The position numbers and the translations under genes are program-made. Positions 15,366 through 30,017 of a stretch of 32,000 bases of DNA are shown one piece after another. The first letter of the stretch is position 1. Every line of letters starts with the position of its first letter. The DNA comes from an uncultured Spirochaetales bacterium. GTDB taxonomy: Bacteria > Spirochaetota > Spirochaetia > DAHUYW01. The notes beneath the pieces are model-generated. The model was given only the letters and a program-made list of their open reading frames with translations, ran no database searches and had not been told where the DNA came from. The stretch spans positions 2,364-34,363 of the forward strand of contig CAZDMH010000014.1 of assembly GCA_964506755.1 (NCBI GenBank), written 5' to 3'.

Positions 15366-16079
15366 ATGGCTATCGTGAAGCTCGAGAATGTGGAAAAGGT
15401 CTATCCCCTCGGCAAAACCGAGGTTCACGCGGTAAAAGGAGTATCGTTCGAGATAGAAAAGGGTGACTTCATTTCAATTGCCGGTCCGTCCGGTTCGGGG
15501 AAGACGACCATCCTCAACATGATCGGATGTATCGACGTGCCCACCTCCGGAAGCGTCGCGATAGACGGTCAGGTAACAAGTGGGTTGAGCGACCGCAAGA
15601 TCACCTCCCTTCGACACGAGGTGATCGGGTTCATTTTCCAGTCCTTCAATCTCATTCCGGTGCTCAACGTCTACGAAAATGTGGAGTTCCCCCTCCTGCT
15701 GGGCAAGGTAAAGGATGCGAAACGCGAGCGAGACGAATGGATCAAGTATCTAATTGAAGAGGTTGGACTCACCCAGTGGAGTCGGCACCGCCCGAACGAG
15801 CTCTCCGGTGGGCAGCGGCAGCGTGTCGCGATTGCACGTGCCTTGGTGACGAAGCCGCAAATCGTGCTGGCCGACGAACCGACGGCAAATCTCGATTCGA
15901 CGACCGGCGAGGCGATCATCGAGTTGATGAAGAAGATCAATCGAGACTTGGAGACGACCTTCATCTTCTCGACTCATGATGCGACGATTGTCGAAATAGC
16001 CGATCACATCATCCGACTCCACGATGGGGTTGTCGCGAGCGAGCAGCGAAGGGAGCGTGAAGATGCCGGTTCTCATTAG
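15366..16079 (+). CDS. ABC transporter ATP-binding protein, MacB/LolD/FtsE-like (237 aa)
   Basis: Walker A GPSGSGKTT, Q-loop region, signature LSGGQRQRVAIARAL, and Walker B IVLADEPT. ATG 15366 has AGGAGA 5 nt upstream. The 67 codons the ORF track adds upstream lie in the divergent intergenic region. Confidence 0.9.
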   Translation: MAIVKLENVEKVYPLGKTEVHAVKGVSFEIEKGDFISIAGPSGSGKTTILNMIGCIDVPTSGSVAIDGQVTSGLSDRKITSLRHEVIGFIFQSFNLIPVLNVYENVEFPLLLGKVKDAKRERDEWIKYLIEEVGLTQWSRHRPNELSGGQRQRVAIARALVTKPQIVLADEPTANLDSTTGEAIIELMKKINRDLETTFIFSTHDATIVEIADHIIRLHDGVVASEQRREREDAGSH

Positions 16080-17538
16080 GATCGCTTTCCGCAATCTTCT
16101 CGAGCACAAGTCCAAGAGCCTGATCATCGGCATCATAATGGCGCTCGGGATTATGATCCTCGTAGTCGGCAACTCGTTCATCGACACCTCGGCTCGGGGG
16201 ATCAGGCGCGCCTTCATAGACAACTTCACCGGAGATGTGATGATCACCGGGAAGACTCAGGGTCAAATCTCCCTTTTTGGAGTACAGTCCGTGGCCGGAA
16301 TGGAATCGACACCTCTCATTCCGGACTATACGAAGATCGTCGATCACCTTTCAAGCAGCTCGAACGTCGCATCCATGACCTCGCAGGTGTCCGGATTTGC
16401 GACGATCGGAACTGAAGAGAACAACGACACCCAAGACAACACGTTTACTATCCTCTTTGGCATCGAACCGGCCTCGTATCACGCGATGTTCAACAACATC
16501 GATCTGACCGCGGGAAGCTACTTGAAACCGGGAGAGGCCGGGATACTCCTATCCAAAGATCGGGTCAAAGAGATCGAAAAGAACCTCAAGACGACCATCA
16601 AGGTCGGCGACAAGCTCCTGCTCAACAGCCTCTCGAACGTCGGCTTCCACATTCGAGTAGTCCCGGTTCGGGGGATCTTTACGTTCAAGCAGAAGACTGG
16701 AGCGTTGGATGCCATCTCGTACGTGGACATTCAGACCGTCCGAGCCCTCCTCGGTATGGTAGTGGGGGACACCACGACAGAGGACTTGAGCCACGCGGAG
16801 ACCTCGCTCCTCGGATCGACGGACACCGAGAATCTTTTCGGGGGCGGCATGGTTCAGGAAGATACGAGCGGCACGACGGCCAACAACGTGGCGGGTCTCT
16901 CACAGGCGCTGGCCACAAGCCAGGGTTCCCAGTCGGCCCCCCAGCTCGATTCCGGGGCCTGGAACTACGTCTTGATCAAGCTCAAGAATCCGGGTGCTGA
17001 AGCCGGCTTCATTGCCAATATGAACATGTGGCTCGGCCAACAAGGAATCGCCGCACAGGCGCACGATTGGAAAACCGCCGCCGACGGTTTCGCCTCCTCT
17101 TCAGACATCATCCGAGTGGTCTTCGACGTGGCGATTCTCATCGTCGCGATCGTCGCAATCATCATCATAATGAACACACTCGTAATCAGCGTAATCGAGC
17201 GGACCTCGGAAATCGGAATGATGCGGGCACTCGGCGCACAGAAAGGCTTCATCTGGCGGATGTTCGTCGCGGAAACTCTCACCGTGAGCATCGTCTTCGG
17301 GCTTGTCGGGATAGCACTTGGTGCCCTCGCAATCGGCGTGATCAACCTCCTGGGAATCCAGATCTCGAACCAATTCCTCCAGGTGCTGTTTGCGGGTTCC
17401 GTCCTCAAGCCAACGATCTCTGTTTCGACCCTTGTCGGGTCGCTTGTAGTCGTGATATTCGTCGGGATTCTATCGCACCTCTATCCGGTTTCAATCGCGC
17501 TGAAGGTGCAGCCGGTGAAAGCGATACAGACAGATTAG
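16063..17538 (+). CDS. FtsX/MacB-type ABC permease 1 (491 aa) with a large extracytoplasmic domain
   Basis: N-terminus MPVLIRIAFRNLLEHKSKS followed by a TM segment, then about 330 aa of extracytoplasmic domain. C-terminal FtsX module NTLVISVIERTSEIGMMRALGAQKGFI. Overlaps the ATPase gene by 17 nt. Confidence 0.85.
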   Translation: MPVLIRIAFRNLLEHKSKSLIIGIIMALGIMILVVGNSFIDTSARGIRRAFIDNFTGDVMITGKTQGQISLFGVQSVAGMESTPLIPDYTKIVDHLSSSSNVASMTSQVSGFATIGTEENNDTQDNTFTILFGIEPASYHAMFNNIDLTAGSYLKPGEAGILLSKDRVKEIEKNLKTTIKVGDKLLLNSLSNVGFHIRVVPVRGIFTFKQKTGALDAISYVDIQTVRALLGMVVGDTTTEDLSHAETSLLGSTDTENLFGGGMVQEDTSGTTANNVAGLSQALATSQGSQSAPQLDSGAWNYVLIKLKNPGAEAGFIANMNMWLGQQGIAAQAHDWKTAADGFASSSDIIRVVFDVAILIVAIVAIIIIMNTLVISVIERTSEIGMMRALGAQKGFIWRMFVAETLTVSIVFGLVGIALGALAIGVINLLGIQISNQFLQVLFAGSVLKPTISVSTLVGSLVVVIFVGILSHLYPVSIALKVQPVKAIQTD

Positions 17539-17549
17539 GGAGTTGCGAC

Positions 17550-18860
17550 GTGAAGAATATGATGATAGCACTTCGGAACCTGAACCGGCAGAAGAAACGG
17601 AGCTTCCTCCTTGGCGGCGCTATAGCCTTCGGAATACTCATCATCACCCTCATCAACGGGTTTGCCGGCAGCTTCGTTAACAACGTCAGCGAGAACTTCT
17701 CCCACCTCTTCGGTGGACAGATCTTCATCGACGGGTTCGAAAAGTCGCCCTCGGGGCGACGGATCTCGATCATACGTGATGACAGCGTCTTGACCGACGC
17801 AATCAAGGAATCCGGAATCCCTACAACCTACATTACGAAGGCATCGAGCTTCTCCGGGACGCTGATTTTCCAGAACAACACCGCTGCGCAGCAAGTTGTC
17901 GGAACGGACTGGCAGAAGGCGAGCTATATTCGCAGCAGGCTTACCCTCGTCAAAGGCAGCTTCGCCAACATGGACAACCCTCACGGCATCATAATCAGTG
18001 ACCGTGTCGCAAAGCAGCTGAAAGTCGAGCTCGGCGACACCATTCTCGCCCAGCTTCGAACGGCGACCGGTCAGCTCAACGTGGGTGAGTTCCAGGTTGC
18101 GGCGGTTAGTCATGACCCGGGGCTGTTCGGTTCCATCGCCGCGTACGCGAATCTGCAGTACGTCAACACTCTGCTGAATATTCGCAGCGGAGACTACCAG
18201 ACCCTCGGAATCTTTCTGACGCAGGGAGAGAACATGGATGTCGCTGCCGCCAAGCTTTACTCGGTGCTGAAGGGCAAGGTCCAGATGTTCAAACGTGAGA
18301 CGACGACCGCTTCGACAAATCCCTTCACGGCAATGCAGCGTGCGACGCAGAACGAAACCTGGAGCGGCACGAAATATCGCCTGTATACGCTCAACGATCG
18401 CCTGGCCGAGCTCAAACAGATCGTCGGAACACTCAATACATCAGGCTTGGTCATTCTGCTCATCCTTCTCGTGGTCATCATGATCGGAATAACGAACACC
18501 TTCCGCATGATCATGTACGAGAGGATCCGAGAGATCGGGACTATGAGGGCGCTCGGTATGCAGCGGCCCACGGTCCGAAATCTCTTTCTCCTCGAGGCGC
18601 TGTTCCTCTCGCTTGGTGGGACGGTGCTCGGGCTCATAGCCTCGGCGATCGTCATGACTCTCCTGCACCTGATCAATTTCGGTCTCAATACACCGCTCTT
18701 TCTTCTTCTGAAAGACGGCCATATGACCTTTGATCTGAAGGCGGGACAGTTGATCGGCAATCTCTTGATCGTTGCAGTACTGACAATTCTAGCCGCCTAT
18801 TTCCCAGCGCGCAAAGCTGCGCGGCTGAATCCAGCGGATGCGCTCCGCTCGACTCACTGA
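17550..18860 (+). CDS. FtsX/MacB-type ABC permease 2 (436 aa)
   Basis: N-terminus (V)KNMMIALRNLNRQKKRS followed by a TM segment. FtsX module FRMIMYERIREIGTMRALGMQRPTV. GTG 17550 has AGGGAG 8 nt upstream. The ORF-track 5' extension to 17028 is an Arg-rich out-of-frame overlap with permease 1. Confidence 0.85.
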   Translation: MKNMMIALRNLNRQKKRSFLLGGAIAFGILIITLINGFAGSFVNNVSENFSHLFGGQIFIDGFEKSPSGRRISIIRDDSVLTDAIKESGIPTTYITKASSFSGTLIFQNNTAAQQVVGTDWQKASYIRSRLTLVKGSFANMDNPHGIIISDRVAKQLKVELGDTILAQLRTATGQLNVGEFQVAAVSHDPGLFGSIAAYANLQYVNTLLNIRSGDYQTLGIFLTQGENMDVAAAKLYSVLKGKVQMFKRETTTASTNPFTAMQRATQNETWSGTKYRLYTLNDRLAELKQIVGTLNTSGLVILLILLVVIMIGITNTFRMIMYERIREIGTMRALGMQRPTVRNLFLLEALFLSLGGTVLGLIASAIVMTLLHLINFGLNTPLFLLLKDGHMTFDLKAGQLIGNLLIVAVLTILAAYFPARKAARLNPADALRSTH

Positions 18861-18876
18861 CAACCGGAGGCACATT

Positions 18877-19638
18877 ATGTTTCGCAAGTTCATGAAGACC
18901 ACGCTCCTTACAGCAACCCTGTTGACGGCCGCCTCCTTTGCGGCGTTGGCGCAGCAGCCGGATTTCCACAGGATTCTCCAGCGGGTAGACGAGCTGAACA
19001 ACTTCACGACTGATTTCTCAGCAGTGTTCACGGTCGTATCAGAGAAACCCGGTCAGGACCCGAGCGTTACGAGGGCACAGATCTTTCGTCGGGATCCGAA
19101 GAAGCAGTTCTTGATCGTCATCCTGAAGCCCGACACCCAGAAAGGGCAGGGATATCTCCAAGTGGACAACAACCTGTGGTTCTACGATCCTCAGAGCAGA
19201 CAATTCTCGCACTCCTCTCTCAAGGAAAACTTCCAGAGCTCTGACGCGAAGAACAGCGACTTCAACCAACAATCACTCGCGGAGGACTACACGGTCGCCG
19301 GTTCAAGCGACGGGAAACTCGGGATCTACCCGGTTTACGTTCTCGATCTCAAGGCGAAAAACAACGAGGTCACCTACCCACATGTCAAGCTCTGGGTGCG
19401 GAAGGATCTCGAAATCGTGCTCAAGGCCGAGGATTACAGCCTGTCGGATCGGCTTATGCGAACGGCCTACTATCCAAACTACGCGAAAATCGGGGACAAG
19501 TACTTCCCGTCGCGAATGTTGTTCATCGACAATCTCAATACGGGAAATAAGACCCAGATCACGGTGACGGATCCGTCGATTGCTGCGCTTCCCGACTATC
19601 TGTTTACCAAGGCCTATCTCGAACGAGTCAATCGTTAG
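18877..19638 (+). CDS. LolA-like 'outer membrane lipoprotein-sorting protein' family periplasmic protein (253 aa)
   Basis: GGAGG 6 nt upstream of ATG 18877. Signal peptide MFRKFMKTTLLTATLLTAASFAALA|QQ. The body (…LWFYDPQSRQF…YPVYVLDLKAK…VTYPHVKLWVRKDLEIVLKAEDYS…YFPSRMLFIDNL…) fits my memory of the LolA_like family, which is usually encoded next to FtsX-type ABC genes. Confidence 0.65.
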   Translation: MFRKFMKTTLLTATLLTAASFAALAQQPDFHRILQRVDELNNFTTDFSAVFTVVSEKPGQDPSVTRAQIFRRDPKKQFLIVILKPDTQKGQGYLQVDNNLWFYDPQSRQFSHSSLKENFQSSDAKNSDFNQQSLAEDYTVAGSSDGKLGIYPVYVLDLKAKNNEVTYPHVKLWVRKDLEIVLKAEDYSLSDRLMRTAYYPNYAKIGDKYFPSRMLFIDNLNTGNKTQITVTDPSIAALPDYLFTKAYLERVNR

Positions 19639-19655
19639 GTTGAGGAGGCGCGATC

Positions 19656-21188
19656 ATGAAACGAGCTTACACCGTGCTCTTGCTGCTTCTTCTCGCCGCA
19701 GGCGCATATTCCCAGGATCAATCTACCGGCTCGAATCCTCCTCCGATCCCGACGAATCCCGACTCGCTGTTCGGCTCACCGTCGACCTCCTCTGTCGAAG
19801 GTTCAGGCGGATCCACGGGTAGTGCCTCGAACGGAGGGGGAGACCAGACGGGCCCTTCCACTCAATCTCCGAGCTCTATGTTCCAGGGCGGGATGGTCGA
19901 GGATGTAACGAAGAGCAAGGCCGAGTCCAGTGCTACTGCGGCGACCTCCCTGCTCAAAAGCCAGGGTATCCAGTTCGGAGGAAGCATTGAATCGACCTAC
20001 ACCGCATACGGTTTCTGGCTCGGTGCGTATCCTGATCTGTCGAACCTTGCCAGCGGCTACACCGACCAGATGGTCCCCGTCCTGCAGGGCACGATGTTCT
20101 TCGATGCCCGGCCGGATCAGCATTTTCGGGTCTTCGGAAAAGCCAAGGCGAGCTATCCCTTTCAGGTTTCGGGTGGGACGAGCTCCACAGGCGTGACGAG
20201 CGCGCTTGGAGTGCCGCCCACACAGACAGTGACACCGAACATCAACATCTTCGAGCTCTACTCCGATTTCGACTACAAGAACAAACTCTATTTCCGCGTC
20301 GGCAAACAGGTGGTGAACTGGGGGGTCGGCTACTTCTTCAGCCCGGCGGACATCATCAGCGTTACGCCAATCGACCCCCAGAACCCGACGATCGAGCGTG
20401 AGGGACCAGTCGCCTTCAAGGTCAACATGCCGTTTGCGGAAGTCGACAACCTCTACCTGTACCTCGTTGCGAATCAGAGCTTCGCGACGGGGAGCGCATT
20501 TCACCTCAACGATGTTGCGGTTGCCCCCAAGGCGGAGTTCGTGGTCGGTGACTATGAGTTTGGCCTCGGTGGCTACTACCAACGCAACCAGCGCCCGAAA
20601 GCGATGGTGACTGCCACCGGCTCGATCGGCAAGATCGGCGTATTCGGAGAGGCGGTCGTCAGCAGGGGAGCCGACGGGACCCTTGTGCGACAGGGTGGAG
20701 CGATGGGTTACGAGACCTACACCGACACCACCACCCCCTACTTCCAAGGTACGGTGGGATTCAACTACATGCAGAGCGACTGGCACCTGTCCCTCTACGG
20801 CCAGTACTACTACAACGGACAGGGCTACGCGGACCCCACGCTCGAGAAAGAGGCCTATATCCTCTACGCCGGCCAGGTGGCCGGCACCCTCCCCGTCAGC
20901 CCTCAGCTCAGCCTGCAGGACCTCCAGCTGCCGGCGCGCAACTACGGGGCCGCGGTCGCAAGCTGGAGCAACATCAAGGATTCGAACGTTACGCTGTCGC
21001 TCTTTTGGGAAGGCAACTTCACCGACGGGTCAGGGATCGTGAGCCCGAGCGTGAGCTACAAGCTATTCGATCACGCGAGCCTCACGGCGGCAACACATAT
21101 CGCCTATGGTGGACAGAGCACCCAGTTCATGCAGACCGGGCACATGTCGGTGTCGCTTCAGGCCTCACTCGGTACCGGTGATTTCTAA
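19656..21188 (+). CDS. Predicted outer-membrane beta-barrel protein (510 aa), family unknown
   Basis: GAGGAGG upstream. Signal peptide MKRAYTVLLLLLLAAGAYS|QD. An S/G/P/T-rich low-complexity segment of about 55 aa. Then a long run of alternating aromatic/small-residue strands, a YFRVGKQVVNWGVGYFFSPADI motif, and a C-terminal ...SLGTGDF with terminal Phe. Confidence 0.6.
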   Translation: MKRAYTVLLLLLLAAGAYSQDQSTGSNPPPIPTNPDSLFGSPSTSSVEGSGGSTGSASNGGGDQTGPSTQSPSSMFQGGMVEDVTKSKAESSATAATSLLKSQGIQFGGSIESTYTAYGFWLGAYPDLSNLASGYTDQMVPVLQGTMFFDARPDQHFRVFGKAKASYPFQVSGGTSSTGVTSALGVPPTQTVTPNINIFELYSDFDYKNKLYFRVGKQVVNWGVGYFFSPADIISVTPIDPQNPTIEREGPVAFKVNMPFAEVDNLYLYLVANQSFATGSAFHLNDVAVAPKAEFVVGDYEFGLGGYYQRNQRPKAMVTATGSIGKIGVFGEAVVSRGADGTLVRQGGAMGYETYTDTTTPYFQGTVGFNYMQSDWHLSLYGQYYYNGQGYADPTLEKEAYILYAGQVAGTLPVSPQLSLQDLQLPARNYGAAVASWSNIKDSNVTLSLFWEGNFTDGSGIVSPSVSYKLFDHASLTAATHIAYGGQSTQFMQTGHMSVSLQASLGTGDF

Positions 21189-21196
21189 CCCGGGAG

Positions 21197-21216
21197 TTGC
21201 CGAGTGCCCTCGGCAG
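21197..21216. terminator. Hairpin between convergent genes (uuGCCGAG-ugcc-CUCGGCag). Possible bidirectional terminator; no U-tract.
   Basis: Perfect GCCGAG/CTCGGC inverted repeat, extendable to 7-8 bp, with a 4-nt loop. It lies in the 34-bp gap between the barrel gene stop (21188) and the SDR stop (21223). Confidence 0.35.
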
Positions 21217-21984: not shown

Positions 21985-24900
21985 CTATTTCGATTTCGGC
22001 AGCAACTCGAGAATCAGCTCTACCTCTCCCCGGCTGAGCTTCGTTGCCTGAGCGATCTGCGGCACCTTCCAGCCCTGATGCGCAAGCCGTGTAACCATGT
22101 CGCGCGTCGACAAGGAAGGGGCTCCCTTGTCCTTCTTTCCCTGCTTTGCCTCGTCCTTCAGGAGAGAACCGAGGAGCTTGACCTGTTCCTCGGCCTGCTT
22201 GCTGATCTCCTCCAGCCTCGTCTCCGTCCGCGCGAGCCACTCCCGGGCCTGTTGCATCTTCTCGGTTCGTCCCTCGATATCCTTCAGTACGGAACCGAGA
22301 GAAGAAAGCTGCTCCACCGCGCTGTCGGCATCCTTTTTGCTCTTTGCGAGAACCTCGATTCGCTGCGAAAGATCGTCGAGTCGCTTCGGCATTGCCTTTA
22401 CGCCGTTTTCGAGGCTCTGGAGCTGTTGCTCGAGGCTCTCCAACTGCTGGAAGTTCTTGTCCACTCCGTCGGTCGTCGTTTCGAGGATCTTGTCCTTCCC
22501 TTCGAGCCGTTCGTACTTGGCAAATACATCTTTCTCCAGCTCCTCGAGCTTTCGGATTTCCGCTTGAACCGCCTGCAGCTCGTCATGGCTCCCAGTGACC
22601 TGATCGAGCTTCGCATCGACCGACTGGGAGATTGTGATCAGTTTCTTGAAATCGCCTTCCATGACCTCTATGCGATGCTTCTCCGCGAGGAATTTCGCAA
22701 GCTTCGAGGAAACGTCATCTCCGAGCTTCTTGGTCTTCTGAAAGCTCTTCTCGAGATCCTTGAGCTCTTTGGTCTCCGCCTTAACCGCCTCGAGCTGCTC
22801 CTTGAGCTGCTCGATATCCTCAGTCAAAGTCACCTTCAGCGTATCCGCTCGGTTGAAGATCTTCGTTTGCGCAATGAAATCCTTCTGTTTCTTCTCGATC
22901 TCGGCAAGGTTCTGCGAGAGTAGCTTGTAGCTTTCTTCGATCTTCGAGGCCAGCCGTTTCTGGGATTCCTCCATACGGTCGTAGCTCTCCTGGGACGAGG
23001 AGCGCAAATCTCTGAGACGCTGATCGGCCTCGCCCGCGAGCTCGTGCGTCTTCGCCTGGAGATCTTTCATGAACAGATCGTACTGCTGCCGGAACTCCGA
23101 GATGGCGTCCGCGCTCCTCTGTTTCAAATCGGCTTCCAGCCGGTCGACGTCTGCGCCGACGCGCGCAAGATCTTCCCTTAGCCTCGTTCGCTCCTCTTCG
23201 CTGCCCGTTATGAGCTCCCCTTTTTCGTGCTCGAACTCGACTCGGAGCTCCTCGAGGTCCTTGCCTATCCTGTCCTCGGCCTCCTTGACCTGGGCAAGGA
23301 TCTTTTCCTGCCATGAGGCAACATCACTCCTCGTGGCGTCGAGCATTGCCTGGATGTCGCTCTTCCGAGCCTCGAGCTGCTCGGTGATTCCACCGAACTC
23401 CTGCTCAACCGTGCGTTCGTACTGAGATACCCGTTCGCCGACCCGCTCCGAGTGGCCCTCTAACTCCTGCGAAATGAGATTCATAGCCGCCTGCCGCGCT
23501 TCGGCTATTCGTTCGCGCATTTCAGTGCTGAAGCGGTCGAGAGTTTCCGTTCTGCTCTGGTCGGCCTCCGACGCTATTTCGTCCATTCGGCTACCGATAC
23601 TCGACTGCCACTCTTCGAGCCGCTCGTTGAGGCCGTCGGTACGCACCTTGAGGTCGGCGAAGAAATCATCCTCGAAAACCTGGAGCTTCTCCGAGACATT
23701 CTCGTAGGCCCGGGACTTCAAGTCGGTAAGACCGTGCTCAACCTCTTCAACCGAAGCGTGGATAACGGCGAGCTCCTCCTCGACTCTTTGGCGTTCGGCT
23801 TCACGACGCTCGGCAAGCTGCTTCGTCCATTCGTCGAAATCCGTTTCGATCTTTATCCTTACCTTTTCCATGATCGACCGAAGGTTCCGGTCGAGCTCTT
23901 CGATATCGATGTTGACCGCCTCGATCTTTCCCATTCGATATGCTACGTCGGCCTCGTAGTCGGCGACCTTGGTTTCCACTTCGGTAAGCCGACCCGTCAT
24001 ATCTTCTTCGAATCTTCCGACCTGACTCGAGAAGCGCTCGATGACGTCGTCGGCTAGCCCGTTGTTTCGCTCATCTATTTCTCCGAGCGAAGTCCGGAAG
24101 GAGCTCTCCTTCTCCTCAATGAGCTCTTCGACATTGTTCAACCGATCGCGAAGAGAGGATTCGAGGTCGCGAACGGTGATGTTCATCTCGCTCACGAAAG
24201 CATTGAGTTCGTTTCTCTGCTCCTCTTTGCGCTTTGCGGTTTCGGAAGCGAGGGTAGTCAGGTTGTTGTCGACATCCGCAGAAAAAACGCCATAGCGCTC
24301 CGAGAACTCCCCTTCCTTGTCTTCGATTAGCTTCTGAATTTCCGCCTGCCAAACCGTAATCTGAGATCGGCTCTCGCCAAACATCTGGTCGAGCTCCTTG
24401 CGCGACTCTTCGAGACTCGCCTTCGTTTCGTTGAACGAGCTCGTGAGCAGCTTCTGGACCTCCCGTGCCCTACTCTCAATGTGACTTTTCAGCTGCACGA
24501 AGACGTCATCTTCGAGATTGCGCGCCTTCTCGGCAACATCGCGGATGTTCTCCTGGTAGCTTTGCTCTATGGTGTTCACCCGCTCCTGGAACGCGTCGAG
24601 TTTCTCGATGATGGTTCGTTCTGTTTCCACCACCTGTTCTTTCAACTCGGAATGGAGCTTTGCGATGCGATCCGTTACGCCTTTGCCGTTTTCCGTCGCT
24701 TTGTCGAGCAGCAAATTGAGGTTCGTCTCAAACTGGCCCCGGAGCTCATCGCCGGTGCCCTGCGCGTTCTTGATGAATCCCTGAAACACCTGTTCCAGGT
24801 TGCGTACTGTCTCCGCCTCCATGCCGTCGCGGCGCGCCTCGAGGCCGGCGAGGTACTCGGAGAAGCGTTCGACTGACTTCTCCGCCTTCTCGAGCTCCTT

Positions 24901-25452
24901 CGCTATGGCCGATGCGTTGTCCTTGCTGACCTTCATGACGTTGCCCGACACAACCTTAAGCTCGCGTTCGTTGATCTTGGCGAACTCGTCTTTCAGCTCA
25001 GGGATGCTCTTCTCAATTCCTTGCATCCTGACAACGGCATCTTTGATGCGCTTCCCGACCGCATCGACGAACTCCGATTCCTGATGAAGGCGCTTGAGGT
25101 TCTCTTCTACCCGTCCGGTCATCTGGACGAGATCGGCCAAAGCCTGGTCATATTCGTTCATTCGAGTGCTGAGCTTCTCGAATCCCTTGGCTCGATCGCC
25201 AATGCCGTCCTCCACATTCGAAATGTGCTTGACGATCTCTTTTGCAGTCCGCTGATGAACGTCGAGCTCTATCGAGAGGTTCTTGAGCTCCGTCGTTTTC
25301 GATTCGACGAACTCACTCAGCTGATCTCTGACCTTGTCGGAGAAGCGTTTCACCTTGTCGAGTGATCTGTTGTTGCGGTCCAGCTGCCGATAAACGACGA
25401 GAACGAGTATCACTATTAATAGAGTGATAATGTTTCCTATCGTCAGAATCAT
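21985..25452 (-). CDS. 1155-aa membrane-anchored coiled-coil protein with a C-terminal helix-turn-helix-like tail
   Basis: GGGAGAG upstream of the ATG. N-terminal TM ILTIGNIITLLIVILVLVV is followed by YRQLDRNNRSLDKVKR (positive-inside rule, so the body is cytoplasmic). About 1080 aa are E/K/R/L/Q-rich, Pro-poor sequence. The last ~40 aa read TRDMVTRLAHQGWKVPQIAQATKLSRGEVELILELL. Confidence 0.8.
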   Translation of the reverse strand: MILTIGNIITLLIVILVLVVYRQLDRNNRSLDKVKRFSDKVRDQLSEFVESKTTELKNLSIELDVHQRTAKEIVKHISNVEDGIGDRAKGFEKLSTRMNEYDQALADLVQMTGRVEENLKRLHQESEFVDAVGKRIKDAVVRMQGIEKSIPELKDEFAKINERELKVVSGNVMKVSKDNASAIAKELEKAEKSVERFSEYLAGLEARRDGMEAETVRNLEQVFQGFIKNAQGTGDELRGQFETNLNLLLDKATENGKGVTDRIAKLHSELKEQVVETERTIIEKLDAFQERVNTIEQSYQENIRDVAEKARNLEDDVFVQLKSHIESRAREVQKLLTSSFNETKASLEESRKELDQMFGESRSQITVWQAEIQKLIEDKEGEFSERYGVFSADVDNNLTTLASETAKRKEEQRNELNAFVSEMNITVRDLESSLRDRLNNVEELIEEKESSFRTSLGEIDERNNGLADDVIERFSSQVGRFEEDMTGRLTEVETKVADYEADVAYRMGKIEAVNIDIEELDRNLRSIMEKVRIKIETDFDEWTKQLAERREAERQRVEEELAVIHASVEEVEHGLTDLKSRAYENVSEKLQVFEDDFFADLKVRTDGLNERLEEWQSSIGSRMDEIASEADQSRTETLDRFSTEMRERIAEARQAAMNLISQELEGHSERVGERVSQYERTVEQEFGGITEQLEARKSDIQAMLDATRSDVASWQEKILAQVKEAEDRIGKDLEELRVEFEHEKGELITGSEEERTRLREDLARVGADVDRLEADLKQRSADAISEFRQQYDLFMKDLQAKTHELAGEADQRLRDLRSSSQESYDRMEESQKRLASKIEESYKLLSQNLAEIEKKQKDFIAQTKIFNRADTLKVTLTEDIEQLKEQLEAVKAETKELKDLEKSFQKTKKLGDDVSSKLAKFLAEKHRIEVMEGDFKKLITISQSVDAKLDQVTGSHDELQAVQAEIRKLEELEKDVFAKYERLEGKDKILETTTDGVDKNFQQLESLEQQLQSLENGVKAMPKRLDDLSQRIEVLAKSKKDADSAVEQLSSLGSVLKDIEGRTEKMQQAREWLARTETRLEEISKQAEEQVKLLGSLLKDEAKQGKKDKGAPSLSTRDMVTRLAHQGWKVPQIAQATKLSRGEVELILELLPKSK

Positions 25453-27721: not shown

Positions 27722-28330
27722 CTACCTTCCCTTCACCAGAAGCAGAACCATCTCGCCTACTCGGTTTTCGAGTCTGATGATGATATGATTCACCTTCGAG
27801 ACGAGATGATTGTAGAATGCGATCGAAGGTATCGCAACGATAATCCCAGCGGCTGTGGTAAGCAACGCTACGGCGATCCCCCGGCCCAGCACGCTTGGAT
27901 CGTTTACGACGCCGCTTGATCCGAGTACCCCGAACGCCTGTATGGTACCTACGACGGTACCAAGGAGGCCCAGCAGGGTCGCGACATTGGCGATTGTTCC
28001 GAGAGTCGGGAGGAAGCGCTCGAGGCGAGGAATCTCGAGGTTTGCCGCGGCCAAGATCGCCTCTTTGATTGCCGATTCGGAATGCTCGTGGTGCTCGATT
28101 CCGACCCGCATGAGGTTCGTAATAGGAGCCGGGCTGCTTTCACATATACTGAGCGCTTCGTCGAAATGACCTTTTTCCAGCGTTGCCCTCAACCGACTAA
28201 TCATCTGATCTTCATCGACTCGGATTCGGCGGAAAAAGATCAAGCGCTCGATAATGATCACGGCGGCAATGAGAGACAGGAGGATGATGACTATCATCAC
28301 GATGCCGCCCTTCTGAATGAGAAACACCAT
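27722..28330 (-). CDS. exbB: MotA/TolQ/ExbB family proton channel (202 aa)
   Basis: Three TM segments and the LGTIANVATLLGLLGTVVGTIQAF signature. GAGGAG lies 8 nt upstream of the ATG. Confidence 0.85.
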   Translation of the reverse strand: MVFLIQKGGIVMIVIILLSLIAAVIIIERLIFFRRIRVDEDQMISRLRATLEKGHFDEALSICESSPAPITNLMRVGIEHHEHSESAIKEAILAAANLEIPRLERFLPTLGTIANVATLLGLLGTVVGTIQAFGVLGSSGVVNDPSVLGRGIAVALLTTAAGIIVAIPSIAFYNHLVSKVNHIIIRLENRVGEMVLLLVKGR

Positions 28331-28373
28331 TCTAGTTACTCCTCATAAGGATTTCTCGCCATAGTTGGACCGT

Positions 28374-30017
28374 CTACAGAGATATTCGAGTGGTCACGGT
28401 GACCCGGAATCCGGGCTCGTAGTAGTAGTTCCATGTCTTTCGGCCGGAGCTGAGCGGAGACAGCAGGTCGTTCATGTTCAAATGGAAGCTCACGCCGCTC
28501 GATACACGAAGGTATCCCGAAAGGGATATATTGGGCATCTCTGCGGCGAACGGCGAAATGGTGTCCAGGTTCATCGTTCCTGACAACGCGCCGCCGTATC
28601 GACCGTTTGTGTCACTCAACTCTGCATCGACGTTGAAGCTGCTCAAAGGTACGAATGGTCCCGGATTCAGGAAGTTGCCTTTCCAGCCGAGCTTCAACGA
28701 GAACGGACCGGTGGGATCCCACGAGAGCTCCGCCGACGGACCGAGCACCGTCGCACGGCCCTGCGTGAAGGAAAACAATCCGGTACCGGCCTGCGCCGAA
28801 CCGGGGAGTACGGCTGCGCTTGCGTCGGAGAAATCCACGCCGCTCTGAAGCCCGAGCGCAGGACCGAAATGCCAGCTCGCGCTCGCTCCTCCATACCACT
28901 CGAGCGAAGGCACCAGGTTCGTGCTCTGATCGAGGAACGGATACTCTGTCCAGAGGTCGAAGTAGCTCTGACGATCCACTCGATAGCCTCCATAGAGGCG
29001 GTACGTCAGAAGGTCCTTGTACACCCCGTCGAGCTCGAGGGAGAACGGGATCGCCCACCGAATGGTCTTTTCCCATTCCGCTCCGACGCTCCCTTTGAGG
29101 GTGAGGGCCAGGGGAAGCTCGGCACTCATGGAGAGCGTGCCGCCTGCAGTCTGTCCAACTGACTGCACCGGTCCGGTAGTTTGCGTAGCGCTATAGTACC
29201 CGGTGAGCGTGCCGTTCACCTTCGAGAAATTCAGGCCGAGATTCAGCGCCGGGTTTACCGCCAACTCCTGTGCGTTCAGGGCATTTGTCGGAGAAGGACC
29301 GGCGAGACTCATATCTCCACTTGTCGCACCGATGCTCACGCCGAAGGTGAATGGTGAGGCGCCGGCGTACTCCGCTTTCGCCGCCCCGGAAATGAATCGA
29401 TGGGTGACCGAGCTGTAGGTGTTCGCGTTTCCCTGGAGCCCGTCTTCAGTCTCACGGTAATAGTCGTGGGTATCGAAGTTGAACACGTTCTTCGCGGAAT
29501 AGGTCAGGCTGCCGACGAGCGCATCCTTCCGATTGAAGAAACCGGCACCGGCCGGTTGGAAGGTGCTCGTCGACGAAGGTGCCAGATAGCCATCGAGTCG
29601 TTCGTGCGAGAATTCGATGTTGAACCTCGGGTCGCTTCCGAGCTTGTAGAGGGTAATGTCCCCGATGATGTGGTTCATCGATCCGGCACCGATCAAGCCG
29701 TCACTGAAGAAACTCGCCTGAGACTGGGAAGTGGTCTGTACCGAAGTCCCGTTCGGACCCTGAGTCGGGACTGGAACATCGTAGGCGGCGCTTCCGAGCT
29801 TGATGTTCTGTACCTGGGGCAGAGCGACGTCGATTTGCGGCAATGAAGGGGCCTGTTCCTCAGGCAGCGGAGTGTCGATCTTCTCCTGAGTAACGTCTTG
29901 CACTTTGAGCAGGATCGGCGGAAGGACGATTTCGGGCTCGGACGGCTCCACCTGCTGCGCCGGGAGCGCTGCCGCGGCGACCAGCGCTACGAATAGCCCA
30001 TAGACAACCTCTTTCAC
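28374..30017 (-). CDS. Secreted protein of unknown family (547 aa), predicted outer-membrane beta-barrel
   Basis: GTG start at 30017 forms a GTGA overlap with the TPR gene stop. Signal peptide (V)KEVVYGLFVALVAAAALPA|QQ. A P/E/Q-rich N-terminal extension is followed by more than 450 aa rich in G/S/T/Y/F/L with an alternating pattern, ending ...GFRVTVTTRISL. I recognise no family motif. Confidence 0.55.
   Translation of the reverse strand: MKEVVYGLFVALVAAAALPAQQVEPSEPEIVLPPILLKVQDVTQEKIDTPLPEEQAPSLPQIDVALPQVQNIKLGSAAYDVPVPTQGPNGTSVQTTSQSQASFFSDGLIGAGSMNHIIGDITLYKLGSDPRFNIEFSHERLDGYLAPSSTSTFQPAGAGFFNRKDALVGSLTYSAKNVFNFDTHDYYRETEDGLQGNANTYSSVTHRFISGAAKAEYAGASPFTFGVSIGATSGDMSLAGPSPTNALNAQELAVNPALNLGLNFSKVNGTLTGYYSATQTTGPVQSVGQTAGGTLSMSAELPLALTLKGSVGAEWEKTIRWAIPFSLELDGVYKDLLTYRLYGGYRVDRQSYFDLWTEYPFLDQSTNLVPSLEWYGGASASWHFGPALGLQSGVDFSDASAAVLPGSAQAGTGLFSFTQGRATVLGPSAELSWDPTGPFSLKLGWKGNFLNPGPFVPLSSFNVDAELSDTNGRYGGALSGTMNLDTISPFAAEMPNISLSGYLRVSSGVSFHLNMNDLLSPLSSGRKTWNYYYEPGFRVTVTTRISL

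What the first reader, a model, noticed from the sequence alone, without database searches (positions are those of the whole stretch)
15366..21188. Five-gene operon: MacB/Lol-type ABC (ATPase plus two different permeases), a LolA-like carrier and an outer-membrane barrel
Seen in sequence: five plus-strand genes are packed with a 17-nt overlap and gaps of 11, 16 and 17 nt, each with its own GGAG-type SD. The last two proteins have classical signal peptides, and the final one ends in a terminal Phe like an outer-membrane beta-barrel. Established knowledge: FtsX/MacB/LolCDE-type (type VII) ABC transporters expel substrates from the periplasmic face of the inner membrane, and LolA-fold proteins shield acyl chains in the periplasm. 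Inference: the operon encodes a complete route from inner membrane to periplasmic carrier to outer-membrane acceptor for a hydrophobic cargo such as a lipoprotein, glycolipid or lipid. A barrel takes the place of a LolB-type lipoprotein as the terminal component. I do not know of a characterised system with this exact five-part composition.
Basis: partly seen in the sequence, partly recalled or inferred. Interest (0 to 1): 0.7.

Follow-up and report, generated by a model that had tools for sequence, protein, structure and literature searches.

The report
ABC pump, lipid carrier, outer-membrane barrel
A spirochaete operon encodes an ATP-driven membrane extractor, a soluble LolA-shaped carrier and an outer-membrane barrel; it most likely moves an unknown greasy molecule from the inner to the outer membrane, and is an ABC-powered version of a widespread, barely studied carrier-plus-barrel cassette.

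Summary
Five plus-strand genes (15366-21188) have junctions of -17, +11, +16 and +17 nt, each preceded by a GGAG-type ribosome-binding site. They encode an ABC ATPase, two paralogous MacB/FtsX-type permeases, a secreted PF17131 LolA-fold protein and a secreted 510-aa protein modelled confidently as an 18-strand barrel ending in Phe.

The barrel is syntenic with the rest. 49 of 51 related loci with enough flank keep the whole ordered cluster, and 316 species genomes, mostly Spirochaetota, encode a relative.

It is not a Lol system. The LolD, LolCE and LolA equivalog models all score far below their cut-offs. The carrier groups with NE2245, DUF1329 and LolA3, not with true LolA.

The barrel has no Pfam match itself. 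However, 31 of 71 family members hit DUF1302 below threshold. Genuine DUF1302 genes follow PF17131 genes next to an MMPL transporter in Prevotella. A remote homologue follows ABC plus PF17131 inside a fatty-acid/polyketide-type cluster in E. coli O157.

The nearest studied relative is AmeABCD (DUF1302, DUF1329, RND), implicated in hydrophobe export.

Verdict: a real, conserved, uncharacterised ABC-driven variant of the DUF1329/DUF1302 carrier-and-barrel export class. The cargo is unknown.

The parts
15366..16079 (+). ABC ATPase (237 aa), MacB/LolD/FtsE-like nucleotide-binding subunit
   Evidence: ABC_tran 5e-34. Best NCBIfam model is LolD, 234 bits, below its 307.75 cut-off; DarD, DevA, FtsE and MacB score nearly as well. 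AGGAG lies 6 nt upstream. Orthologues are 68-82% identical in related loci.
16063..17538 (+). Permease 1 (491 aa): FtsX-type, four transmembrane helices, with an enlarged and diverged periplasmic domain. Overlaps the ATPase gene by 17 nt.
   Evidence: FtsX 1.1e-16 at residues 357-484. Aligns over its full length to permease 2 at 23% identity (E 2e-15), including the MacB_PCD region, with an insertion at about 240-345. Orthologues in other loci do hit MacB_PCD. PDB matches to MacB, LolC/E/F, YtrF and FtsX are all similar (1e-9 to 3e-5) and cover only the C-terminal transmembrane region.
17550..18860 (+). Permease 2 (436 aa, GTG start; alternative ATG at 17559): MacB_PCD plus FtsX
   Evidence: MacB_PCD 2.6e-11 and FtsX 1.4e-20. 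lolCE model 77 bits against a cut-off of 362. PDB matches: YtrF 3.7e-12, LolF, MacB, LolC/E. GGGAG lies 7 nt upstream of the GTG. Public gene call uses the ATG at 17559.
18877..19638 (+). Soluble periplasmic LolA-fold carrier (253 aa), family PF17131 (LolA_like / 'TP_0789-like')
   Evidence: PF17131 1.8e-44. PDB sequence hit 3BUU at 5e-23. AF2 model pLDDT 83. Foldseek TM 0.71-0.80 to 3BUU, 3BK5, 4Z48 (DUF1329) and 9TP6 (LolA3), against 0.35-0.57 to LolA or LolB. Sec-type signal peptide with no lipobox here or in the 62 orthologues; the two regex matches lie inside hydrophobic cores, not at a cleavage site. Directly upstream of the barrel in 69 of 75 loci.
19137..19215 (+). Invariant, poorly modelled segment of the carrier (residues about 87-113, KGQGYLQVDNNLWFYDPQSRQFSHS)
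   Evidence: Invariant columns G90, Q91, G92, Y93, W101-P105, S107, R108 and F110 (plus P85 just upstream) fall in or next to the only segment with pLDDT below 50 (87-113). Inferred to be a mobile lid or docking element.
19656..21188 (+). Outer-membrane 18-strand beta-barrel (510 aa), a divergent DUF1302-like family with no Pfam model
   Evidence: No Pfam or NCBIfam hit. AF2 pLDDT 82 overall and above 90 in the barrel, with 18 long strands. Foldseek PDB matches: MOMP, OmpU, chitoporin, AlgE and Occ, TM 0.46-0.59. 31 of 71 family members hit DUF1302 below threshold, best 1.3e-5. The family has 3018 representatives at 50% identity with E<=1e-3. C-terminal F510 is conserved.
19713..19940 (+). Disordered periplasmic N-terminal tail of the barrel (residues 20-95), carrying the conserved 'DSLFG' motif (D36-G40, nt 19761-19775)
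   Evidence: pLDDT below 50. F39 is invariant in 71 sequences. The motif [DE]-x-[LM]-F-[GE] occurs once or several times per orthologous tail (up to four clear repeats, e.g. L039), usually in an acidic context. 56 of 63 tails match the regular expression, with a mean of 2.1 matches against 0.26 in shuffles; overlapping matches were counted, so the copy number is inflated.
20295..20408 (+). Most conserved stretch of the barrel (residues 214-251, RVGKQVVNWGVGYFFSPADIISVTPIDPQNPTIEREGP), mostly the long connection between strands 5 and 6 (third extracellular-side loop by strand count)
   Evidence: Invariant or nearly invariant R214, G216, W222-D232, P241, P244, G250 and P251. Residues 218-251 are non-strand but confidently modelled. 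This is the region that matches DUF1302 profile positions about 104-196 in members such as P0092. It also aligns to 'GK...G.F.LkSPA.L' in the E. coli family.
21198..21215 (.). 7-bp GC-rich hairpin (TGCCGAG-TGCC-CTCGGCA) between the convergent barrel and SDR genes; a possible end of the transcription unit
   Evidence: Read directly from the sequence. Not called by the terminator scan because no T tract follows. Weak evidence.

Best explanation
The operon encodes a self-contained, ATP-driven route that carries a hydrophobic or amphiphilic, lipid-like cargo from the inner membrane to or through the outer membrane.

**Proposed steps**
1. Two ATPase subunits power a heterodimer of two paralogous MacB/FtsX-type (type VII) permeases. 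[quoted passage not shown]
2. The cargo is loaded into the hydrophobic groove of a soluble PF17131 LolA-fold carrier.
3. The carrier docks on an 18-strand DUF1302-like barrel. Docking may use the barrel's flexible N-terminal tail with its conserved DxLFG motif and the carrier's invariant mobile segment.
4. The barrel inserts the cargo into the outer membrane or releases it outside, using its conserved inward-facing third loop.

**Classification.** This is the spirochaetal, ABC-powered variant of the DUF1329/DUF1302 carrier-and-barrel cassette. In Proteobacteria and Bacteroidota that cassette is coupled to HAE3/MMPL RND pumps. I judge the cargo more likely to be a small lipid or hydrophobe (an endogenous envelope lipid, or toxic hydrophobic compounds) than a lipoprotein.

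**Shown:** gene content, folds, synteny and family relationships.
**Inferred:** the physical hand-over, the direction of transport and the cargo.
For: **Components and folds**
- The barrel and carrier models are confident, and their structural neighbours are outer-membrane barrels and PF17131/DUF1329 proteins.

**Functional coupling**
- Junctions are tight or overlapping.
- 49 of 51 loci keep the ordered five genes, and 69 of 75 have the carrier directly upstream of the barrel, while the flanking genes differ.
- 316 species genomes carry a relative.

**Link to the DUF1302/DUF1329 class**
- 31 of 71 barrel homologues hit DUF1302 and no other family recurrently. The hit falls in the conserved motif region.
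- DUF1302 is reported as an 18-strand barrel whose best PDB matches are AlgE and Occ, with an AlphaFold-Multimer DUF1302-DUF1329 complex at ipTM 0.84 (PMC13499233). The barrel here shows the same strand count and the same PDB neighbours.
- In Prevotella nigrescens a PF17131 protein, which also hits DUF1329, is followed by a bona fide DUF1302 (51 bits against a gathering cut-off of 23) after an MMPL transporter.

**Evidence that the direction is export**
- Deleting AmeABCD (DUF1302 + DUF1329 + beta-propeller + HAE3 RND) lowers monoterpene tolerance and raises Nile Red accumulation (PMC6394551).
- Cofitness of the DUF1302/DUF1329/BNR/RND genes was interpreted as export of an envelope component (bioRxiv 10.1101/072470).
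- In E. coli O157, ABC ATPase + FtsX permease + PF17131 + a 462-aa remote homologue of this barrel (hhalign profile-profile probability 87%, E 4e-6, 314 columns) sit inside an acpS/KR/DH/ACP/KS/KS/FabD lipid-synthesis operon.
- Paraburkholderia has ABC-FtsX-PF17131-hypothetical next to P450 and PPTase genes.
- From established knowledge, all characterised type VII ABC systems (LolCDE, MacB, DevCA, HrtBA) expel or extract substrates; none imports.
Against: - No experiment exists for any ABC-driven member, and the cargo is unknown.
- The window barrel itself has no DUF1302 hit at any threshold.
- Single-sequence hhalign to the Prevotella DUF1302 protein is weak (probability 22%, 50 columns). It is also weak to the Paraburkholderia protein (probability 6%).
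- No carrier-barrel or carrier-permease complex could be modelled here.
- The COG4447 beta-propeller of AmeABCD-type cassettes is absent from the operon and from the Pfam-scanned ORFs of the window.
- No biosynthetic or regulatory gene is linked in spirochaetes, so context gives no cargo clue.
- Six loci carry a barrel paralogue after panB without the ABC or carrier genes. The barrel can therefore exist uncoupled, at least locally.
Confidence: 0.55

Rival explanations
1. An alternative Lol-like lipoprotein pathway. The ABC extracts acylated lipoproteins, the LolA-like protein ferries them, and the barrel replaces the missing LolB as outer-membrane acceptor or as a surface-lipoprotein translocon.
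For: - It has the same logical architecture as LolCDE-LolA-LolB, including two different permeases.
- LolD and lolCE are the best-scoring NCBIfam models.
- Spirochaetes are reported to lack LolB, and a Borrelia ABC + LolA-like + Omp85 cluster has been proposed computationally for such a role (PMC13078400).
- The PF17131 namesake TP0789 is among the abundant proteins of the minimal T. pallidum proteome (PMC5015957).
Against: - All Lol equivalog models fail their cut-offs by wide margins.
- The permeases are no closer to LolC/E/F than to MacB or YtrF.
- The carrier is structurally in the 3BUU/DUF1329/LolA3 group, not the LolA group.
- P. gingivalis LolA3 binds LolB only very weakly and lacks the LolA Arg and the LolB Leu. 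F. johnsoniae lolA3 deletion has no gliding or type IX secretion phenotype.
- Relatives sit in lipid-synthesis or hydrophobe-efflux contexts.
- Spirochaetes have a separate LolA homologue (Borrelia BB0346). A separate LolCDE is background knowledge and was not checked here.
Confidence: 0.15
2. An uptake or retrograde route. The barrel admits hydrophobic nutrients such as long-chain fatty acids or lipids, the carrier shuttles them inward, and the ABC inserts them into the inner membrane.
For: - DUF1302/DUF1329 genes often lie in catabolic islands for hydrophobic substrates such as phenanthrene, p-cresol, steroids and monoterpenes.
- The barrel resembles substrate channels (Occ, chitoporin, AlgE).
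- Many spirochaetes depend on exogenous fatty acids (background knowledge).
Against: - No type VII ABC transporter is known to import (established knowledge).
- The only genetic data point to efflux or tolerance.
- The E. coli and Paraburkholderia versions are embedded in biosynthetic clusters, not catabolic ones.
- There is no substrate-binding-protein type of importer architecture.
Confidence: 0.1
3. The ABC is a mechanotransmission regulator like FtsEX, not a transporter. It uses ATP to switch the LolA-like protein or the barrel between states, for example gating a porin or activating an envelope enzyme, without moving cargo between them.
For: - FtsX-family complexes include pure signal transducers (FtsEX; PDB and NCBIfam matches to FtsX).
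- LolA-fold proteins can be allosteric regulators, such as GerS (found), or anti-sigma partners, such as RseB and MucB (distant Foldseek matches).
Against: - The same carrier-barrel pair is coupled to RND/MMPL transporters elsewhere, which argues for a transport role.
- No hydrolase or regulator gene is linked.
Confidence: 0.07

Closest known systems
AmeABCD of Castellaniella defragrans, and the DUF1302/DUF1329/COG4447/HAE3-RND cofitness cluster of Shewanella, Pseudomonas and Kangiella
   Same: - An outer-membrane DUF1302-type 18-strand barrel is paired with a LolA-superfamily periplasmic protein and an inner-membrane energised transporter, in one conserved cassette.
- It is implicated in export of hydrophobic compounds or an envelope component.
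- The carrier here superposes on the DUF1329 structure 4Z48 at TM 0.71-0.74.
   Different: - The engine is a heterodimeric type VII ABC transporter rather than an RND pump.
- There is no COG4447 beta-propeller.
- The carrier is the short PF17131 form (253 aa), not the roughly 450-aa DUF1329 form.
- The barrel is so diverged that it falls outside the Pfam DUF1302 threshold, and it has an N-terminal DxLFG tail.
MMPL - PF17131 - DUF1302 cassette of Bacteroidota (Prevotella nigrescens; probably the context of P. gingivalis LolA3, PDB 9TP6)
   Same: The same carrier family (PF17131) sits immediately upstream of a roughly 435-aa DUF1302 barrel. The carrier fold matches at TM 0.68-0.73.
   Different: - An MMPL/RND engine replaces the ABC.
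- The Prevotella cluster has a TetR regulator and extra ABC exporters nearby, whereas the spirochaete operon has no regulator.
- Function is also unknown there; LolA3 binds LolB only very weakly.
ABC - FtsX - PF17131 - 462-aa protein module in the E. coli O157:H7 island near ycdU (OI-47 region), with a similar module in Paraburkholderia ginsengisoli
   Same: - It has the same order: ABC ATPase, FtsX/MacB_PCD permease, PF17131 carrier, then a roughly 400-460-aa protein.
- The E. coli protein family is a remote homologue of the spirochaete barrel (hhalign probability 87%, E 4e-6, 314 columns).
   Different: - It has a single permease gene plus a 218-aa unknown protein, rather than two paralogous permeases.
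- It is embedded in a fatty-acid/polyketide-type biosynthetic operon.
- The E. coli barrel-like protein has a conserved Cys23 suggestive of a lipobox and no acidic tail.
- It is uncharacterised in the literature searched.
LolCDE-LolA-LolB lipoprotein trafficking
   Same: It shares a type VII ABC with two non-identical permeases and a separate ATPase, a soluble LolA-fold periplasmic shuttle, and a dedicated outer-membrane acceptor.
   Different: - None of the Lol equivalog models is satisfied.
- The carrier is in a different LolA-superfamily branch.
- The acceptor is an integral barrel, not a LolA-fold lipoprotein.
Borrelia BBJ23-BBJ29 cluster (predicted MacB-like ABC + LolA-like + Omp85 barrel)
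   Same: It is also a spirochaete cluster that combines a type VII ABC, a LolA-like periplasmic protein and an outer-membrane barrel, proposed to export a non-polar ligand.
   Different: - The barrel there is Omp85/BamA-like, whereas here it is an 18-strand porin/AlgE/DUF1302-like barrel.
- Borrelia has a homodimeric permease, TPR proteins and a plasmid location.
- It is likewise only a computational prediction.
MacAB-TolC tripartite efflux pump
   Same: It shares the MacB_PCD plus FtsX permease architecture and ATP-driven expulsion from the periplasmic side.
   Different: - No membrane-fusion adaptor and no TolC-like duct occur in the operon or among the Pfam-scanned ORFs of the window.
- The ATPase is a separate polypeptide.
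- A soluble carrier plus a porin-like barrel replaces the continuous duct.

Membership tests
LolCDE (lipoprotein-releasing ABC transporter) | ATPase meets the LolD equivalog model (TIGR02211, cut-off 307.75 bits) | tested here: not met
   234.4 bits. DarD, DevA, FtsE and MacB models score 194-216 bits.
LolCDE (lipoprotein-releasing ABC transporter) | Permeases meet the lolCE equivalog model (TIGR02212, cut-off 362 bits) | tested here: not met
   66.2 and 77.3 bits, matching mainly the C-terminal part. PDB LolC/E/F matches are no better than MacB or YtrF.
LolCDE (lipoprotein-releasing ABC transporter) | Two non-identical permease subunits with a separate ATPase | tested here: met
   The permeases are 23% identical full-length paralogues. 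Both are conserved in 49 of 51 loci.
LolA (periplasmic lipoprotein chaperone) | Meets the LolA equivalog model (TIGR00547, cut-off 112 bits) and is structurally closest to LolA | tested here: not met
   29.3 bits. Foldseek TM 0.35-0.57 to LolA structures, against 0.71-0.80 to 3BUU, 3BK5 and 4Z48.
PF17131 LolA_like ('TP_0789-like', outer membrane lipoprotein-sorting protein) | Pfam gathering threshold (30 bits) over the full domain | tested here: met
   152 bits, profile positions 3-184 of 184. The precomputed label PF17131 is present on all listed homologues.
DUF1302 (PF06980) outer-membrane barrel | Pfam gathering threshold (23.2 bits) | tested here: not met
   The window protein has no hit even at E<=5. 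31 of 71 family members hit below or near threshold (best E 1.3e-5; P0092 scores 20.7 bits).
DUF1302 (PF06980) outer-membrane barrel | 18-strand barrel with AlgE/Occ-like structural neighbours, encoded directly downstream of a DUF1329/PF17131 gene | tested here: met
   - The AF2 model has 18 strands.
- AlgE and Occ are among the top PDB matches, as reported for DUF1302.
- It occupies the same position as the genuine DUF1302 gene in Prevotella.
AmeABCD-type tetrapartite HAE3-RND system | HAE3 RND inner-membrane pump and COG4447 beta-propeller encoded in the cassette | tested here: not met
   Neither is present in the operon or among the Pfam-scanned ORFs of the 32-kb window. The engine is an ABC transporter.
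MacAB-TolC tripartite pump | Membrane-fusion (HlyD-type) adaptor and TolC-type outer-membrane factor partner | tested here: not met
   No HlyD or OEP family protein occurs in the operon or among the Pfam-scanned ORFs of the window. The barrel's PDB neighbours are porin-like, not TolC-like.
Type VII (MacB/FtsX-fold) ABC transporters | N-terminal transmembrane helix, large periplasmic domain (MacB_PCD), C-terminal FtsX three-helix module, and a LolD/MacB-type ATPase | tested here: met
   MacB_PCD plus FtsX in permease 2. FtsX in permease 1, whose periplasmic domain aligns to that of permease 2. The three-dimensional fold of the permeases was not modelled.
Borrelia BBJ23-29-type cluster | Omp85/BamA-like barrel and TPR periplasmic proteins | tested here: not met
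   None of the 50 listed PDB matches of the barrel is an Omp85/BamA/TamA structure, and no Omp85 or POTRA Pfam hit was found. The TPR protein at 30014-31960 is 9 kb away on the other strand and unlinked.

The most novel reading that the evidence does not exclude
This operon is the missing LolB-independent delivery route of spirochaetes. A dedicated type VII ABC and a soluble PF17131 carrier hand acylated cargo (outer-membrane or surface lipoproteins, or the abundant spirochaetal glycolipids) to a DUF1302-like barrel. The barrel captures loaded carriers with its acidic DxLFG tail and inserts or flips the cargo. More broadly, PF17131/DUF1329 + DUF1302 would be a fourth general trans-envelope lipid pathway, alongside Lol, Lpt and Mla, with interchangeable ABC or RND engines.
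Probability: 0.12. Interest if true: 0.85.

Novelty: new variant of a known kind. Interest (0 to 1): 0.55.

Why it matters
How diderm bacteria move hydrophobic molecules across the aqueous periplasm is understood for only a few cargoes: lipoproteins (Lol), LPS (Lpt) and phospholipids (Mla and AsmA-like proteins).

The DUF1329/DUF1302 pair is widespread but essentially uncharacterised, and no DUF1302 member has a solved structure. This work adds four points:
- Hundreds of spirochaete species carry a stand-alone version driven by a LolCDE-like heterodimeric ABC instead of an RND pump.
- The barrel family, about 3000 clusters at 50% identity, has no Pfam model and is a remote DUF1302 relative.
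- The same module sits inside a lipid-biosynthesis operon in E. coli O157. That gives a genetically easy system in which to find the cargo class.
- Conserved elements provide concrete hypotheses for docking and hand-over. These are the DxLFG tail, the invariant loop between strands 5 and 6, and the invariant mobile segment of the carrier.

If the cargo turns out to be an envelope lipid or lipoprotein, it would bear on outer-membrane biogenesis in spirochaetes, which lack LolB. It would also bear on the pathogens Treponema and Borrelia.

Tried and rejected
**Libraries that were unavailable**

**Searches that found nothing useful**
- Literature on TP0789 / TP_0789 gave only a proteomics mention.
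- I could not establish whether the T. pallidum TP0786-0789 locus has the barrel.
- Literature on the E. coli OI-47 lipid cluster gave only comparative-genomics mentions.

**A complex model I could not run**
- I prepared 62 paired carrier-barrel sequences for a fused-chain AlphaFold model.

**Weak comparisons**
- Single-sequence hhalign of the barrel profile against the Prevotella DUF1302 protein (probability 22%) and the Paraburkholderia protein (probability 6%) was too weak to count on its own.
- The E. coli family itself shows no DUF1302 hits.

**Scans and readings rejected**
- The promoter and terminator consensus scans found nothing above shuffle expectation.
- I rejected 'canonical Lol system', 'MacAB-TolC pump' and 'Omp85-type cluster like Borrelia BBJ' after the membership tests.
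- I rejected 'chance juxtaposition' because of the 49/51 synteny.

Full report
**1.

The ORF list and the junction read-out confirm five plus-strand genes.

| Gene | Coordinates | Junction to previous gene |
|---|---|---|
| ATPase | 15366-16079 | (first gene) |
| Permease 1 | 16063-17538 | 17-nt overlap |
| Permease 2 | 17550-18860 (GTG start) | 11-nt gap |
| LolA-like protein | 18877-19638 | 16-nt gap |
| 510-aa protein | 19656-21188 | 17-nt gap |

Each start is preceded by a GGAG-type ribosome-binding site. Public gene calls on the identical metagenome contig (JGI sample 3300031367) agree, except that they start permease 2 at the ATG at 17559.

Pfam gives ABC_tran, FtsX, MacB_PCD plus FtsX, and LolA_like PF17131 (152 bits). 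It gives nothing for the fifth protein. The two permeases are full-length paralogues at 23% identity, so permease 1 has a diverged and enlarged MacB-type periplasmic domain.

The last two proteins have Sec-type signal peptides without a lipobox. This is true of essentially all 62 orthologous carriers examined. The last protein ends in Phe, and that position is conserved in at least 90% of 71 homologues.

The surroundings are ordinary chromosomal genes: pur genes, dnaJ-dnaK-grpE, a Na/Ca exchanger, an SDR and a giant coiled-coil protein. Among the ORFs scanned there is no adaptor, TolC-like, RND or regulator gene.

**2. The fifth protein is an outer-membrane barrel**

An AlphaFold2 model built on 71 homologues has mean pLDDT 82, rising above 90 across the barrel. 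It shows 18 long strands, a disordered tail at residues 20-95 and one disordered loop.

Foldseek against the PDB returns only outer-membrane barrels: Campylobacter MOMP, OmpU, chitoporin, AlgE, Occ channels and OmpM1. The TM-scores are 0.46-0.59 when normalised on the target. The match is generic, with no close solved relative.

The most conserved sequence is R214-P251 (RVGKQVVNWGVGYFFSPAD...P..P..EREGP). From residue 218 it is a confidently modelled non-strand segment between strands 5 and 6. By strand count this is the third extracellular-side loop, which is the position of the constriction loop in classical porins. That positional reading is inference.

**3. The barrel belongs with the other four genes**

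The barrel has 93 unnamed homologues in the protein database. A profile search finds 3018 representatives at 50% identity (710 of them at E<=1e-30). 316 species genomes encode a relative. Nearly all of the 80 loci retrieved are Spirochaetota, with a few MAGs labelled Limnochordia, Clostridia or Bacillota.

I ran tblastn of the four upstream proteins against 84 fetched loci:
- 49 of 51 loci with at least 4.7 kb of upstream DNA carry the complete ordered cluster.
- 69 of 75 have the carrier gene directly upstream of the barrel.
- Flanking genes differ between loci, so the five genes behave as a self-contained module.

The six exceptions are one sublineage in which a barrel paralogue follows panB. 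Some MAGs carry two complete clusters (for example L011 and L021).

**4. It is not a Lol system**

| NCBIfam equivalog model | Score (bits) | Cut-off (bits) |
|---|---|---|
| LolD | 234 | 308 |
| lolCE | 66 and 77 | 362 |
| LolA | 29 | 112 |

The permeases match MacB, LolC/E/F, YtrF and FtsX structures about equally, and only in the C-terminal transmembrane region.

The carrier's nearest solved relatives by sequence are NE2245 (3BUU, 5e-23), a DUF1329 protein (4Z48), P. gingivalis LolA3 (9TP6) and 3BK5. Its AF2 model (pLDDT 83) superposes on these at TM 0.68-0.80, but on true LolA or LolB at only 0.35-0.57.

What is known about this branch points away from lipoprotein sorting:
- LolA3 interacts only very weakly with LolB and lacks the diagnostic LolA Arg and LolB Leu (PMC13103446).
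- Deleting F. johnsoniae lolA3 has no gliding or type IX secretion phenotype (PMC11885536).

**5. What it is related to**

Scanning all 71 barrel homologues against Pfam at a permissive threshold gave one recurrent family. DUF1302 was hit by 31 members, with a best E-value of 1.3e-5. The hits fall on the conserved motif region.

Published information on DUF1302 fits:
- It is described as an 18-strand barrel with AlgE and Occ as best PDB matches.
- It is genomically paired with DUF1329.
- AlphaFold-Multimer predicts a DUF1302-DUF1329 complex at ipTM 0.84 (PMC13499233).
- In Proteobacteria, DUF1302, DUF1329, a COG4447 beta-propeller and an HAE3 RND pump form a cofit cluster proposed to export an envelope component (bioRxiv 10.1101/072470).
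- In Castellaniella this cluster is AmeABCD. Its deletion lowers monoterpene tolerance and raises Nile Red accumulation (PMC6394551).

A tblastn of the carrier against annotated plasmid and chromid records gave three informative contexts:
- **Prevotella nigrescens:** TetR, two ABC exporters, an MMPL transporter, a PF17131 protein (which also hits DUF1329) and a bona fide DUF1302 at 51 bits.
- **Paraburkholderia ginsengisoli:** P450, ABC ATPase, FtsX permease, PF17131, a 404-aa hypothetical protein and a PPTase.
- **E. coli O157:H7:** an island next to ycdU encodes acpS, KR, FabZ-like DH, ACP, two ketosynthases, ABC ATPase, a 218-aa unknown, an FtsX/MacB_PCD permease, PF17131, a 462-aa hypothetical protein and FabD.

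The 462-aa E. coli family (alignment A3) is a remote homologue of the spirochaete barrel. Profile-profile hhalign gives probability 87% and E 4e-6 over 314 columns, and the hallmark motifs line up.

So a conserved two-gene cassette, a PF17131/DUF1329 carrier followed by a DUF1302-like barrel, is combined in different phyla with either an RND/MMPL engine or a type VII ABC engine. The spirochaete operon is the stand-alone version with a heterodimeric ABC.

**6. Mechanism**

Shown here are the parts list, the folds, the tight synteny and the family links. The following steps are inferred:
1. The ATPase dimer drives the permease 1/2 heterodimer.
2. Cargo is extracted at the periplasmic face of the inner membrane and loaded into the soluble carrier.
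3. The carrier delivers it to the barrel.

Every informative context argues for export: Ame efflux, a TetR-linked efflux cluster and biosynthetic operons. So does the absence of any known importing type VII ABC transporter.

Two new sequence features suggest how hand-over might work:
- **The barrel's N-terminal tail.** It carries one or several copies of a [DE]-x-[LM]-F-[GE] motif, usually in an acidic context. F39 is invariant. 56 of 63 tails match, with a mean of 2.1 matches against 0.26 in shuffles.
- **The carrier's invariant residues.** G90-Y93, W101-P105, S107, R108 and F110 cluster in the only low-confidence segment of its model, residues 87-113; invariant P85 lies just before it. This suggests a mobile lid or docking hairpin.

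I propose that the tail recruits carriers to the barrel. This is untested.

The cargo is unknown. The spirochaete operon has no linked biosynthetic or regulatory gene. I favour a small lipid or hydrophobe over lipoproteins, for the reasons given in section 4.

**7. Rivals**

| Rival | Confidence | Main reason against |
|---|---|---|
| Lol-like lipoprotein route with the barrel replacing LolB | about 0.15 | Fails every Lol membership test |
| Uptake of hydrophobic nutrients | about 0.1 | No precedent for an importing type VII ABC, and the contexts point to export |
| FtsEX-like regulatory device | about 0.07 | The same pair is coupled to RND transporters elsewhere |

The Lol-like route is attractive because spirochaetes lack LolB, and because a Borrelia ABC + LolA-like + Omp85 cluster has been proposed for a similar role (PMC13078400).

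**8. Novelty and limits**

It is nevertheless a variant of a recognisable class rather than something categorically new.

The limits are these:
- No multimer modelling was possible.
- The DUF1302 link is sub-threshold for the window protein itself, and single-sequence hhalign comparisons were weak.
- I could not determine whether T. pallidum TP0786-0789 includes the barrel.
- No experiment addresses any ABC-driven member.

Noticed in passing
window 19713-19940 (barrel residues 20-95); motif at 19761-19775: The barrel's disordered N-terminal periplasmic tail carries a short conserved motif, [DE]-x-[LM]-F-[GE] ('DSLFG' here, with F39 invariant in 71 sequences). The motif is repeated in several orthologues (up to four clear copies), usually within a strongly acidic linker. 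A second 'LL.[ST][DE]' motif sits just before strand 1. It looks like a short linear docking motif.
   Followed up: partly
window 19137-19215 (carrier residues 87-113): Nearly all invariant residues of the LolA-like carrier (G90-Y93, W101-P105, S107, R108, F110) lie in the only segment that AlphaFold models with pLDDT below 50; invariant P85 sits just upstream. This suggests a mobile functional element.
   Followed up: partly
L087/L088 (E. coli O157:H7 record NZ_CP124742.1, 148.8-162.7 kb): An island next to ycdU encodes a type II FAS/PKS-like set (acpS, KR, FabZ-like, ACP, aminomethyltransferase, two KS, FabD). Interleaved with it are an ABC ATPase, a 218-aa unknown, an FtsX permease, a PF17131 carrier and a 462-aa protein that is a remote homologue of the spirochaete barrel. 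That protein family has a conserved Cys23 suggestive of a lipobox. No functional literature was found.
   Followed up: partly
L017, L019, L030, L032, L048, L084: A sublineage of barrel paralogues is encoded directly after panB (ketopantoate hydroxymethyltransferase), with no ABC or LolA-like genes nearby. Where the sequence is readable (for example L017, L084), the N-terminal D-x-L-F-E motif is retained.
   Followed up: partly
L031, L034, L039, L040 and P0092 loci L002-L004: Complete five-gene clusters occur on contigs binned as Limnochordia, Clostridia or Bacillota, from anaerobic digesters. This is either horizontal transfer into diderm Firmicutes or mis-binning of spirochaete contigs.
   Followed up: no
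L011 and L021 (same MAG JAUWZD01); L047 and L061 (same MAG JAFGHN01): Some genomes carry two copies of the barrel gene. In JAUWZD01, both copies sit in complete five-gene clusters. This hints at cargo or condition specialisation.
   Followed up: no
window 21198-21215: A 7-bp GC-rich hairpin (TGCCGAG-TGCC-CTCGGCA) with no T tract lies in the 34-nt gap between the convergent barrel gene and the SDR gene.
   Followed up: no
window 21985-25452 (- strand): A 1155-aa, almost entirely coiled-coil, Glu/Lys-rich protein with a short N-terminal hydrophobic segment. Its only Pfam match is a sub-threshold apolipoprotein-repeat hit.
   Followed up: no
window 27722-31960 (- strand): A MotA/ExbB-type proton-channel protein is followed by two large proteins. 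One is a 648-aa TPR/YfiO-like protein and the other a 560-aa protein with no Pfam hit. This may be a Tol/Exb-like envelope cluster unrelated to the finding.
   Followed up: no
window 17550 vs 17559: The start codon of permease 2 is ambiguous. The GTG at 17550 lies 7 nt after GGGAG, whereas public gene calls use the ATG at 17559. The choice changes the intergenic gap from 11 to 20 nt.
   Followed up: yes
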